NCBI RefSeq assembly: GCF_009914755.1
Contig: NC_060933.1
Origin: the human T2T-CHM13v2.0 reference genome, Homo sapiens
Length of the DNA stretch: 64,000 nt
Strand: one strand, 5' to 3'
The notes under the pieces are model-generated. The model was given only the letters and a program-made list of their open reading frames with translations. It was not told where the DNA came from and did no database searches. Shown piece by piece: positions 6,477 through 9,400 of this stretch. Every line of letters starts with the position of its first letter. The first letter of the stretch is position 1. The position numbers and the translations under genes were made by a program.

Positions 6477-9400
6477 ATTTGTTTGCTTTTCTTTTTCTTT
6501 TTTTTTTTAATAGATCCCTCATCCTTTATTGTGTATATTTCATCAAAGAGACATTGCAACAGAGTCTGCTGCTTTCACAGATAAAATGCAAAGGCCTTTC
6601 AGGCAAAAATATAAGAATAATTCAGTGAAATTTATGAAGTTCTTATGTTTCTAATTTTTTTTATTTTTTAAATTTATTATTATTATACTTTAAGTTTTAA
6701 GGTACATGTGCACAATGTGCAGGTTAGTTACATATGTATACATGTGTCATGCTGGTGTGCTGCACCCATTAACTCGTCATTTAGCATTAGGTATATCTCC
6801 TAAAGCTATCCCTCCCCCCTCCCCCACCCCACAACAGTCACCAGAGTGTGATGTTCCCCTTCCTGTGTCCATGTGTTCTCATTGTTCAATTCCCACCTAT
6901 GAGTGAGAATACGCAGTGTTTGGTTTTTTGTCCTTGAAATAGTTTACTGAGAATGATGACTTCCAATTTCATCCATGTCCCTACAAAGGACATGAACTCA
7001 TCCTTTTTTATGGCTGCATAGTATTCCATGGTGTATATGTGCCACATTTTCTTAATCCAGTCTATCATTGTTGGACATTTGGGTTGGTTCCAAGTCTTTG
7101 CTATTGCGAATAGTGCCGCAATAAACATACGTGTGCATGTGTCTTTATAGCAGCATGATTTATAGTCCTTTGGGTATATACCTAGTAATGGGATGGCTGG
7201 GTCAAATGGTATTTCTAGTTCTAGATCCCTGAGGAATCGCCACACTGACTTCTACAAGGGTTGAACTAGTTTACAGTCCCACCAACAGTGTAAAAGTGTT
7301 CCTATTTCTCCACATCCTCTCCAGCACCTGTTGTTTCCTGACTTTTTAATGATTGCCATTCTAACTGGTGTGAGATGGTATCTCATTGTGGTTTTGATTT
7401 GCATTTCTCTGATGGCCAGTGATGGTGAGCATTTTTTCATGTGTTTTTTGGCTGCATAAATGTCTTCTTTTGAGAAGTGTCTGTTCATGTCCTTCGCCCA
7501 CTTTTTGATGGAGTTGTTTGTTTTTTTCTTGTAAATTTGTTTGAGTTCATTGTAGATTCTGAATATTAGCCCTTTGTCAGATGAGTAGGTTGTGAAAATT
7601 TTCTCCCATTTTGTAGGTTGCCTGTTCACTCTGATGGTAGTTTCTTTTGCTGTGCAGAAGCTCTTTAGTTTAATTAGATCCCATTTGTCAATTTTGGCTT
7701 TTGCTGCCATTGCTTTAGGTGTTTTAGACATGAAGTCCTTGCCCATGCCTATGTCCTGAATGGTAATGCCTAGGTTTTCTTCTAGGGTTTTTATGGTTTT
7801 AGGTCTAACGTTTAAGTCTTTAATCCATCTTGAATTATTTTTATATAAGGTGTAAGGAAGGGATCCAGTTTCAGCTTTCTACATATGACTAGCCAGTTTT
7901 CCCAGCACCGTTTATTAAACAGGGAATCCTTTCCCCATTGCTTGTTTTTGTCAGGTTTGTCAAAGATCAGATAGTTGTAGACATGCGGCGTTATTTCTGA
8001 GGGCTCTGTTCTGTTCCATTGATCTATATCTCTGTTTTGGTACCAGTACCATGCTGTTTTGGTGACTGTAGCCTTGTAGTATAGTTTGAAGTCAGGTAGC
8101 GTGATGCCTCCAGCTTTGTTCTTTTGGCTTAGGATTGACTTGGCGATGTGGGCTCTTTTTTGGTTCCATATGAACTTTAAAGTAGTTTTTTCCAATTCTG
8201 TGAAGAAAGTCATTGGTAGCTTGATGGGGCTGGCATTGAATCTATAAATTACCTTGGGCAGTATGGCCATTTTCATGATATTGATTCTTCCTACCCATGA
8301 GCATAGAATGTTCTTCCATTTGTTTGTATCCTCTTTTATTTCCTTGAGCAGTGGTTTGTAGTTCTCCTTGAAGAGGTCCTTCACATCCCTTGTAAGTTGG
8401 ATTCCTAGGTATTTTATTCTCTTTGAAGCAACTGTGAATGCGAGTTCACTCATGATTTGGCTCTCTGTTTGTCTGTTATTGGTGCCAGAATCTCTGGGAC
8501 ACATTCAAAGCAGTGTGTAGAGGGAAATTTATAGCACTAAATGCCCACAAGAGAAAGCAGGAAAGATCCAAAATTGACACCCTAACATCACAATTAAAAG
8601 AACTAGAAAAGCAAGAGCAAACACATTCAAAAGCTAGCAGAAGGCAAGAAATAACTAAAATCAGAGCAGAACTGAAGGAAATAGAGACACAAAAAGCCCT
8701 TCAAAAAATTAATGAATCCAAGAGCTGGTTTTTTGAAAGGATCAACAAAATTGATAGACCTCTAGCGAGACTAATAAAGAAGAAAAGAGAGAAGAATCAA
8801 ATAGACGCAATAAAAAATGATAAAGGGGATATCACCACCGATCCCACAGAAATACAAACTACCATCAGAGAATACTACAAACACCTCTACGCAAATAAAC
8901 TAGAAAATCTAGAAGAAATGGATAAATTCCTCGACACATACACCCTTCCAAGACTAAACCAGGAAGAAGTTGACTCTCTGAATAGACCAATAACAGGCTC
9001 TGAAATTGTGGCAATAATCAACAGCTTACCAACCAAAAGGAGTCCAGGACCAGATGGACTCACAGCCAAATTCTACCAGAGGTACAAGGAGGAACTGGTA
9101 CCATTCCTTCTGAAACTATTCCAATCAATAGAAAAAGAGGGAATCCTCCCTAACTCATTTTATGAGGCCAGGATCATCCTGATACCAAAGCTGGGCAGAG
9201 ACACAACAAAAAAAGAGATTTTTAGACCAATATCCTTGATGAACATTGATGCAAAAATCCTCAATAAAATACTGGCAAACCGAATCCAGCAGCACATCAA
9301 AAAGCTTATCCACCATGATCAAGTGGGCTTCATCTCTGGGATGCAAGGCTGATTCAATATATGCAAATCAATAAATGTAATCCAGCATATAAACAGAGCC

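What the first reader, a model, noticed from the sequence alone, without database searches (positions are those of the whole stretch)
6477..6690. L1-mediated 3' transduction: ~144 bp of foreign DNA with its own poly(A) signal
Seen: the L1 A-tail (~6653-6683) is not followed by a TSD. On the minus strand it is followed by ~144 bp of unique sequence (6652-6509) containing AATAAA (6530-6525). A second A-tail (6508-6493) starts 16 nt after that signal, and only then comes the TSD ATTTGTTTGCTTTTCT (6477-6492), which recurs exactly at 9841-9856. The empty site reads TTCT/AA, an L1 endonuclease-type site. Known: this is the signature of read-through past the weak L1 poly(A) signal. Inference: the segment is a copy of the flank of the source L1 elsewhere in the genome and acts as a lineage barcode. 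Repeat annotation would show it as ordinary unique DNA.
Basis: partly seen in the sequence, partly recalled or inferred. Interest (0 to 1): 0.8.

Follow-up and report, generated by a model that had tools for sequence, protein, structure and literature searches.

The report
Old L1 insertion carrying chr16 flank
This is an ordinary, old, dead L1 jumping-gene copy that dragged about 146 bases of chromosome 16 DNA along with it and had its front half flipped on arrival, both of which are well-known by-products of how L1 copies itself.

Summary
An exact 16-bp target-site duplication (6477-6492 and 9841-9856) encloses one 3348-bp insertion. Read on the minus strand it is: L1, short A-tail, about 146 bp of non-L1 DNA with a single AATAAA, a second 16-nt A-tail.

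That is chr16:66287880-66288025, 138 of 146 bases identical and ungapped. There the stretch is ordinary contiguous DNA that ends at a plausible poly(A) site.

No L1 lies beside that stretch, and none lies within 10 kb either side. No sibling insertions were found.

Bases 8485-9840 read on the plus strand (ORF2p residues about 284-737). Bases 8484 down to 6670 read on the minus strand (residue 744 to the 3' end). Sixteen L1 bases are missing between the arms, and 2 nt of microhomology sit at the TSD. This is classic twin priming.

Best reading (about 0.8): a 3' transduction from a source L1 that was never fixed or was later lost. Template switching or a nested retrocopy cannot be excluded. Ape orthologues could not be checked. 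Ordinary; low interest.

The parts
6477..6492 (.). Left copy of the 16-bp target-site duplication. It is adjacent to the terminal A-tail, and its 3' end (TTCT) is the first-strand primer.
   Evidence: Exact match to 9841-9856; flanking bases differ.
6493..6508 (-). Terminal poly(A) tail of the retrotransposed RNA, 16 nt with one G.
   Evidence: Absent from the chr16 donor, which continues with unrelated sequence.
6509..6655 (-). Transduced, non-L1 segment copied from chr16:66287880-66288025. Homology is certain for 6510-6655. Base 6509 is ambiguous (a mismatch or part of the tail), and 6655 could equally be the first base of the tail.
   Evidence: Single non-self hit in the genome, 94%, E 3.3e-56. 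8 mismatches in 146 ungapped positions. No Rfam family at E<=1.
6525..6530 (-). The only canonical poly(A) signal (AATAAA) in the segment, 15 nt before the point where homology to chr16 ends and the A-tail begins.
   Evidence: one AATAAA, no ATTAAA; the chr16 minus strand continues ...ATATCTCTGATGTGG, a T/GT-rich stretch just past the cleavage point.
6656..6669 (-). Internal A-tail (AAAAAATAAAAAAA) between the L1 terminus and the chr16-derived segment. Under the transduction model it is a copy of the source element's genomic A-tail.
   Evidence: The boundary with the L1 terminus was set by comparison with 29 related 3' ends.
6670..8484 (-). Direct (non-inverted) L1 arm: ORF2p residue 744 to the stop codon (6886-6888), then about 216 nt of 3' UTR. 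It has one in-frame stop and one frameshift.
   Evidence: ORFs. PDB 8uw3 ORF2p residues 744-961 match at E 2.9e-137. Collinear blastn with 5 of 5 other L1 copies starts at 8484 (8483 in one).
8485..9840 (+). Inverted 5' arm of the same L1: ORF2p residues about 284-737 (end of the EN linker plus the RT domain), read on the opposite strand. It has one in-frame stop at 9350-9352.
   Evidence: E 1.1e-178 and 3.4e-96 against 8uw3. blastn to L006, L009 and L010 covers 9842 to 8485 in the opposite orientation to the direct arm.
9841..9856 (.). Right copy of the TSD. Its first 2 nt (AT, 9841-9842) also match the next two L1 bases. This is the microhomology where the second-strand primer annealed inside the L1 RNA.

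Best explanation
One L1 retrotransposition event inserted 3348 bp at a TTCT/AA site between APBA1 and PTAR1.

Inferred origin of the RNA: the template came from a young primate L1 that then sat on the minus strand of chr16, immediately upstream of what is now chr16:66288025. Transcription ran past the L1's own weak poly(A) signal, through the element's genomic A-tail and about 146 nt of flank. The RNA was cleaved and polyadenylated 15 nt after the first downstream AATAAA.

Shown anatomy, inferred mechanism: at chr9, first-strand synthesis was primed from the nicked plus strand on the terminal poly(A). It copied the chr16 flank, the internal A-tail and 1815 nt of L1. The other target end (…CAAAT-3') annealed by 2 nt inside the same RNA, 16 nt upstream of where the first cDNA stopped. 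It then copied 1356 nt in the opposite sense. Joining the two cDNAs left a 5'-inverted, 5'-truncated L1 flanked by a 16-bp TSD. This is twin priming.

Inferred fate of the source: the source L1 is not in this assembly. It was most likely an allele that was never fixed or was later lost, so chr16 shows the empty site. The insertion is a neutral fossil with broken ORF2 and no indication of function. Its chr16 tag records the position of an extinct progenitor.
For: - A 16-bp exact TSD encloses the whole composite, so it was a single event.
- The order L1 3' end, A-tail, unique DNA, AATAAA, 15 nt, A-tail, TSD is seen directly.
- The unique DNA has one other locus in the genome, 138 of 146 identical. 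It is contiguous there with no tails, and homology ends exactly at the inferred cleavage site, followed by a GT-rich stretch.
- That AATAAA is the first and only canonical signal downstream of the inferred L1 position.
- The chr16 neighbourhood is 32% GC, and 0 of 40 500-bp windows look like a CpG island. No sign of an independent promoter was found within 10 kb.
- L1 identity and arm orientation.
- 16 nt are missing between the arm ends in reference coordinates in L006, L007 and L009, and 17 in L010. There is 2 nt of microhomology at the TSD.
- Divergences agree with one age. The L1 3' 560 nt has 10 private differences (1.8%) against 29 relatives. The segment differs from its donor by 5.5% pairwise, about 2.7% per lineage.
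- Literature, passages read:
  - Two A-stretches and a downstream AATAAA are the stated hallmarks of 3' transduction, and small indels occur at inversion breakpoints (PMC4859970).
  - A poly(A) signal lies 10-30 bp upstream of 79% of transduction ends, and reference L1s exist whose source is absent from the reference, called 'proxy elements' (PMC13009371).
  - Twin priming leaves microhomologies (PMC2912911).
Against: - No L1 lies at or within 10 kb of the donor locus, so the source element is inferred, not observed.
- The nick site implied for that source on chr16 is TAAT/AT. It keeps the pyrimidine/purine step but is a poor match to TTTT/AA.
- No sibling insertions share the tag.
- Orthologous ape loci were not available, so neither the empty chr9 site nor a filled chr16 site has been seen.
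- The sequence alone does not distinguish read-through from an RT template switch onto the L1 poly(A) tail.
Confidence: 0.8

Rival explanations
1. Template-switch or RNA-ligation chimera. L1 reverse transcriptase started on the poly(A) tail of an unrelated pol II transcript from the chr16 minus strand and copied its last 146 nt or so. It then jumped to the poly(A) tail of an L1 RNA and carried on. Alternatively the two RNAs were joined before reverse transcription. No L1 ever sat on chr16.
For: - The donor locus has no L1.
- The chr16 boundary (TAAT/AT) is not a good L1 endonuclease site.
- The terminal T of the nascent cDNA could pair with poly(A).
- Chimeric retrocopies made by L1 are documented: U6/L1 chimeras in PMC4859970 (passages) and PMC6789731 (abstract only, from a search listing).
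Against: - From recall, known chimeras mostly have a small RNA as the 5' partner and L1 as the 3' partner, which is the reverse of this order.
- They are far rarer than 3' transductions.
- No promoter-like feature lies within 10 kb upstream on chr16.
- No small-RNA family matches the segment.
- The internal tail is short and interrupted, like an aged genomic tail.
Confidence: 0.1
2. Two nested events. A plain 5'-inverted L1 inserted first. Later a heavily 5'-truncated retrocopy of a chr16 transcript inserted, in the same orientation, into the L1's A-tail. Its own TSD would be a run of T's and so invisible.
For: This is structurally possible. The plus-strand T-run 6655-6662 followed by A gives a TTTT/AT nick site, and the left T-run (6493-6508) could hold a T-only TSD plus a very short new tail. 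From recall, A-tails are favoured L1 endonuclease targets.
Against: - It needs an independent chr16 transcript, for which nothing was seen.
- It needs an exact hit within a tail of about 30 bp, in the same orientation.
- The new tail would be only about 3-8 nt long.
- No second, non-homopolymer TSD exists around either part.
- It is much less parsimonious than one event.
Confidence: 0.05
3. The segment is not a retro-copy at all. It is ancestral chr9 DNA, or part of an unrecognised low-copy repeat, that happens to lie next to the L1.
For: None beyond the fact that the outgroup test could not be run.
Against: - The segment lies inside the 16-bp TSD.
- It is bounded by A-tails that the chr16 copy lacks.
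- It ends 15 nt after an AATAAA.
- It has only two copies genome-wide.
Confidence: 0.02

Closest known systems
L1 3' transduction (Moran 1999; Goodier 2000; Pickeral 2000, as cited in the reference list of PMC4859970)
   Same: L1 3' end, internal A-stretch, unique flank from another locus, canonical AATAAA 15 nt before a second A-tail, one TSD around everything, and an EN-type target site (TTCT/AA).
   Different: The source L1 is not present at the donor locus in this assembly, and no sibling copies exist. The inferred source nick site (TAAT/AT) is atypical.
'Proxy elements' (PMC13009371, passages read)
   Same: A truncated reference L1 that carries a transduced sequence from a source that is itself absent from the reference.
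   Different: Those are young elements whose sources are polymorphic in living humans. This copy has about 2% private divergence. By inference its source is long extinct rather than polymorphic.
Twin-priming 5' inversion (Ostertag and Kazazian 2001, recalled; described in passages of PMC2912911 and PMC4859970)
   Same: Two arms of one L1 in opposite orientation. Their L1 coordinates are nearly contiguous at the TSD-proximal end of the inverted arm and the 5' end of the direct arm, with 16 nt lost. There is 2 nt of microhomology at the priming site, and a normal TSD.
   Different: Nothing notable. The internal arm junction (8484/8485) is blunt, with no microhomology.
Chimeric retrogenes made by RT template switching or RNA ligation (Buzdin 2002/2003 as cited in PMC4859970; PMC6789731, abstract only)
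   Same: Two unrelated RNAs copied into one insertion with one TSD and one terminal A-tail.
   Different: Here L1 is the 5' partner with its complete 3' end and tail, and the 3' partner is the end of an unannotated pol II transcript. That layout is what read-through predicts. It is not the usual small-RNA-then-L1 order (the usual order is from recall).

Membership tests
L1 3' transduction | An L1 3' terminus followed by an A-rich stretch, then non-L1 sequence. | tested here: met
   The L1 terminus ends at about 6670, the A-tail is 6669-6656, and the non-L1 sequence is 6655-6510.
L1 3' transduction | The non-L1 sequence ends in a second poly(A) tail, with a canonical poly(A) signal 10-30 nt upstream. 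| tested here: met
   AATAAA lies at 6530-6525, and the tail starts 15-16 nt later.
L1 3' transduction | A single target-site duplication flanks L1 plus the extra sequence, at an L1 endonuclease-type site. | tested here: met
   16 of 16 exact TSD; TTCT/AA.
L1 3' transduction | The extra sequence is a copy of a unique locus elsewhere. That locus lacks the tails and continues past the cleavage site. | tested here: met
   chr16:66287880-66288025, 138 of 146 identical, contiguous flanks.
L1 3' transduction | Corroborating, not defining: a matching L1 sits immediately upstream of the donor stretch. | tested here: not met
   There is no blastn match to the chr9 L1 within 10 kb either side of the donor at E<=1e-3. 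This is read as the empty or lost allele. Sources absent from the reference are documented (PMC13009371, passages).
L1 3' transduction | The start of the transduced sequence is the source element's 3' TSD. | not testable with these tools
   This needs a filled source allele, which is absent from this assembly. No other primate genomes were available.
L1 3' transduction | The orthologous pre-insertion site in outgroup primates has one copy of the 16-mer and none of 6493-9840. | not testable with these tools
   No primate genomes are held. The genome search covers only the window's own assembly and prokaryotes.
Twin-priming 5' inversion | The 5' part of the L1 is in opposite orientation to the 3' part, within one TSD. 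| tested here: met
   ORF2p residues 284-737 read on the plus strand and residues 744 onward on the minus strand. blastn orientation flips at 8484/8485.
Twin-priming 5' inversion | The TSD-proximal end of the inverted arm and the 5' end of the direct arm are adjacent in L1 coordinates, with a small deletion or duplication. | tested here: met
   A 16-nt gap in L006, L007 and L009 and 17 nt in L010. At the protein level, residues 738-743 are missing.
Twin-priming 5' inversion | Microhomology between the target overhang and the L1 RNA at the second priming site. | tested here: met
   The 2 nt AT at 9841-9842 are shared by the TSD and the L1. Two nucleotides could also be chance, at about 1 in 16.
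Named L1 subfamily (L1PA3) | Diagnostic subfamily positions against curated consensus sequences. | not testable with these tools
   No repeat library was available. Only divergence was measured: 95-97% identity to the nearest copies and 1.8% private differences.
Template-switch chimeric retrogene | The 3' partner derives from an independent (non-L1-driven) transcript. | not testable with these tools
   No annotation or expression data for chr16 were available. There is no CpG-island-like window within 10 kb, which is weak evidence.

The most novel reading that the evidence does not exclude
The chr16 piece was not carried by read-through from an L1. Instead, L1 reverse transcriptase copied the 3' end of an independent chr16 transcript and then switched template onto the poly(A) tail of an L1 RNA. 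This would give a chimera with L1 as the 5' partner. It would explain why the donor locus has no L1 and why its boundary is a poor endonuclease site.
Probability: 0.1. Interest if true: 0.3.

Novelty: new member of a known kind. Interest (0 to 1): 0.15.

Why it matters
It matters little beyond book-keeping. The case shows that a stretch left unmasked next to an L1 (6493-6641 in NCBI's mask) is part of the L1 insertion, and that its origin can be traced to one locus on chr16. The tag marks where a once-active L1 progenitor probably sat about 10-18 million years ago (a rough estimate) and is no longer present. That could be used to look for the filled allele in other apes. Nothing suggests any effect on APBA1 or PTAR1. 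The insertion is intergenic, about 6.8 kb beyond the APBA1 5' end and about 26 kb from the PTAR1 3' end, according to the hub's table.

Tried and rejected
The two open pieces were searched separately instead.
- A source L1 was sought at the donor by blastn of the whole insert against chr16 ±10 kb. Only the segment itself matched.
- Siblings were sought with the genome search using the segment. There were 2 candidates, both scored, one of them the query itself.
- A small-RNA origin was tested with Rfam on 6440-6700 at E<=1. There were 0 matches.
- An independent promoter near the donor was sought. 0 of 40 windows were CpG-island-like. This is weak evidence, because many promoters lack CpG islands.
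- A splice-acceptor origin for the segment's 5' boundary was rejected. No AG precedes the boundary on the chr16 minus strand.
- A better source nick at TTCT/AA, 3 nt further in, was rejected. The chr9 copy retains the intervening ATT of chr16.
- Subfamily naming was not possible without a repeat library.
- The foundational papers were not held: Pickeral 2000, Szak 2003 and Buzdin 2003. Statements about them rest on citations in PMC4859970 or on recall.
- A locus-specific literature search (PTAR1, APBA1, transduction, LINE-1, at least 3 of 4 terms) listed 7 papers. None concerned this insertion, judged by title and abstract start. I make no claim that the locus is absent from transduction catalogues or their supplements, which I did not see.

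Full report
**What is in the sequence**

The 16-mer ATTTGTTTGCTTTTCT occurs exactly at 6477-6492 and 9841-9856. The only other near match in the 64 kb has 2 mismatches. The bases on either side of the two copies differ, so the duplication is exactly 16 bp. The reconstructed empty site reads ...GCTTTTCT/AAATAC, a TTCT/AA L1 endonuclease-type site.

Between the copies lie 3348 bp. Read on the minus strand from the L1 terminus to the left TSD, the 3' end of the insertion is:
- the L1 terminus ...AGTATAATAATAATAAATTT;
- an A-tail, AAAAAATAAAAAAA(A);
- TTAGAAAC... and about 146 nt of non-L1 sequence, ending ...CACAATAAAGGATGAGGGATCTAT(T);
- a second tail, AAAAAAAAAAAGAAAA;
- the TSD.

The segment holds one AATAAA (6530-6525) and no ATTAAA. 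Two small corrections apply. Also, the foreign segment is 6510-6655 rather than 6509-6652.

Stop-to-stop ORFs show ORF2-like reading frames on the minus strand from 8504 down to 6886, and on the plus strand from 8456 to 9840. Against solved human ORF2p (8uw3, 1275 aa):
- plus-strand pieces match residues 284-572 (E 1.1e-178) and 574-741 (E 3.4e-96). The L1 part ends at ...INVQK, residue 737, next to the right TSD;
- the minus-strand piece starts at residue 744 (E 2.9e-137).

blastn against five other L1 copies fetched from the same genome gives the nucleotide picture.
- The direct arm is collinear from window 8484 (8483 in L010) down to about 6700 in 4 of 5 copies. In L007 it aligns in two oppositely oriented blocks.
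- The inverted arm covers 9842 to 8485 in 3 of 5 copies (L006, L009, L010). In L007 it covers only 9842 to 9373.
- It does not align in L008, where only the direct arm matches.

In reference coordinates the arm ends are separated by 16 nt in L006, L007 and L009, and by 17 nt in L010. Sixteen L1 bases were therefore lost.

The alignment runs 2 nt (AT) into the TSD. The 3' end of the minus-strand target overhang (...CAAAT-3') could thus pair with AU in the L1 RNA and prime the second cDNA. The internal junction at 8484/8485 is blunt.

This is the geometry of twin priming. Microhomologies at the ends of 5'-inverted copies are described in PMC2912911 (passages). Small indels at the inversion breakpoint are described in PMC4859970 (passages).

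**Where the foreign segment comes from**

A search of the window's own assembly with 6509-6652 found 2 candidates, both scored. One was the query itself. The other was chr16:66287880-66288022, at 94% and E 3.3e-56.

Ungapped comparison over 6510-6655 against L002 1501-1646 (chr16:66287880-66288025) gives 8 mismatches in 146 positions. On chr16 the stretch has no tails at either end.
- On the high-coordinate side it continues ...TTTCTAAT|ATTATATAAAATG.
- On the low-coordinate side it continues ...GAGATATT|ATAGATC.

Read on the chr16 minus strand, homology stops 15 nt after AATAAA, and the genome continues ATATCTCTGATGTGG, a T/GT-rich stretch. That is what a real cleavage and polyadenylation site looks like. 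PMC13009371 (passages) reports a poly(A) signal 10-30 bp upstream of 79% of transduction ends.

The chr9 copy was therefore made from a polyadenylated RNA transcribed from the chr16 minus strand. Rfam finds no small-RNA family in 6440-6700 (0 matches at E<=1).

**The source L1 is missing**

blastn of the whole chr9 insert (6477-9856) against chr16:66278001-66298000 returns only the segment itself. It appears as two pieces because my fetch boundary split it. There is no L1 match at E<=1e-3.

The source of a young L1 copy must be nearly identical to it, so the source is not within 10 kb in this assembly.

Reference L1s that carry a transduced tag from a source absent from the reference are documented for young elements, as 'proxy elements' (PMC13009371, passages). 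For an old insertion the natural inference is that the source allele was never fixed or was later lost.

Two points weigh against this reading. First, the source is inferred, not seen. Second, the nick site implied on chr16 is TAAT/AT. It keeps the pyrimidine/purine step that PMC4859970 (passages) says is almost always present, but it is otherwise a poor match to TTTT/AA. A better site 3 nt further in (TTCT/AA) is excluded, because the chr9 copy retains the intervening ATT.

The chr16 neighbourhood is 32% GC, and 0 of 40 500-bp windows are CpG-island-like. Nothing points to an independent promoter, although this is weak evidence.

**Age**

The nearest L1 3' ends in the genome are 95-97% identical (40 scored of 4573 candidates). 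The ORF2 stretch at 8200-8480 is 97-98% identical to its best hits (40 scored of 1361 candidates). Whole arms are 94-97% identical to five copies.

In an alignment of the 3' 560 nt with 29 of those nearest copies, the chr9 copy departs from the column majority at 10 of 560 positions (1.8%). The others range from 0.9% to 2.3%, with a mean of 1.5%. The relatives were chosen for similarity to the query, so 1.8% is if anything an underestimate.

The segment differs from its donor by 5.5% pairwise, or about 2.7% per lineage. With these small counts, that is compatible with the L1 figure.

At commonly used neutral rates (recalled, about 1-1.7e-9 per site per year) this suggests very roughly 10-18 million years. 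ORF2 is broken by two in-frame stops and one frameshift.

**Mechanism and rivals**

- **Best reading, about 0.8.** One event, a 3' transduction from a since-lost L1 at chr16:66288025 (minus strand), combined with twin priming at the chr9 target.
- **Template switch or RNA ligation, about 0.1.** This would join an independent chr16 transcript to L1 RNA. It would explain the missing source and the poor nick site. However, it is a much rarer process, it normally gives the opposite partner order (recalled), and it needs a transcript for which I saw no sign.
- **Nested second retrocopy in the L1 A-tail, about 0.05.** This is structurally possible, with a TTTT/AT site at 6662/6663 and a T-only TSD. 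It requires a very short new tail and an improbable coincidence of position and orientation.
- **The segment is ancestral chr9 DNA, about 0.02.** This is contradicted by its position inside the TSD and by the tails that the chr16 copy lacks.

**Comparison with what is known, and verdict**

Every defining feature of a 3' transduction insertion that could be tested is met. The only unmet item is the corroborating one, the source L1 at the donor. All three tested features of twin priming are met.

This is a clean textbook example of two well-known L1 side-products in a single old, dead insertion, lying in intergenic DNA between APBA1 and PTAR1 (hub table). It is a new member of a known kind, of low interest.

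The outgroup-primate tests that would date it, and that could reveal the source element, could not be run with the tools available.

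Noticed in passing
L007 (G000:C2:213887538-213890818): One of the L1 copies fetched as a reference is itself rearranged. The chr9 L1 aligns to it in three blocks that change orientation at about L007 position 1009. It looks like another 5'-inverted (twin-primed) L1.
   Followed up: no
L015 (G000:C10:24110693-24114269), L014, L023, L039: Several of the nearest L1 3' ends show a first A-run, then 15-40 nt of non-A sequence, then a second A-run. 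L015 is an example, with about 16 nt between two A-runs. These are possible very short 3' transductions or merely degraded tails.
   Followed up: no
window 6670-6675 and loci L029, L015, L022 (looser variants in L014, L020, L024): A subset of the closest L1 relatives share an ...AAATTTAAAAAA ending with the chr9 copy rather than a plain A-run. The TTT may therefore be a lineage marker of a sub-group of source elements.
   Followed up: partly
window 6493-6641: NCBI's repeat mask starts at 6642 (hub table). The terminal A-tail and most of the chr16-derived segment are therefore left unmasked, although they belong to the L1 insertion.
   Followed up: yes
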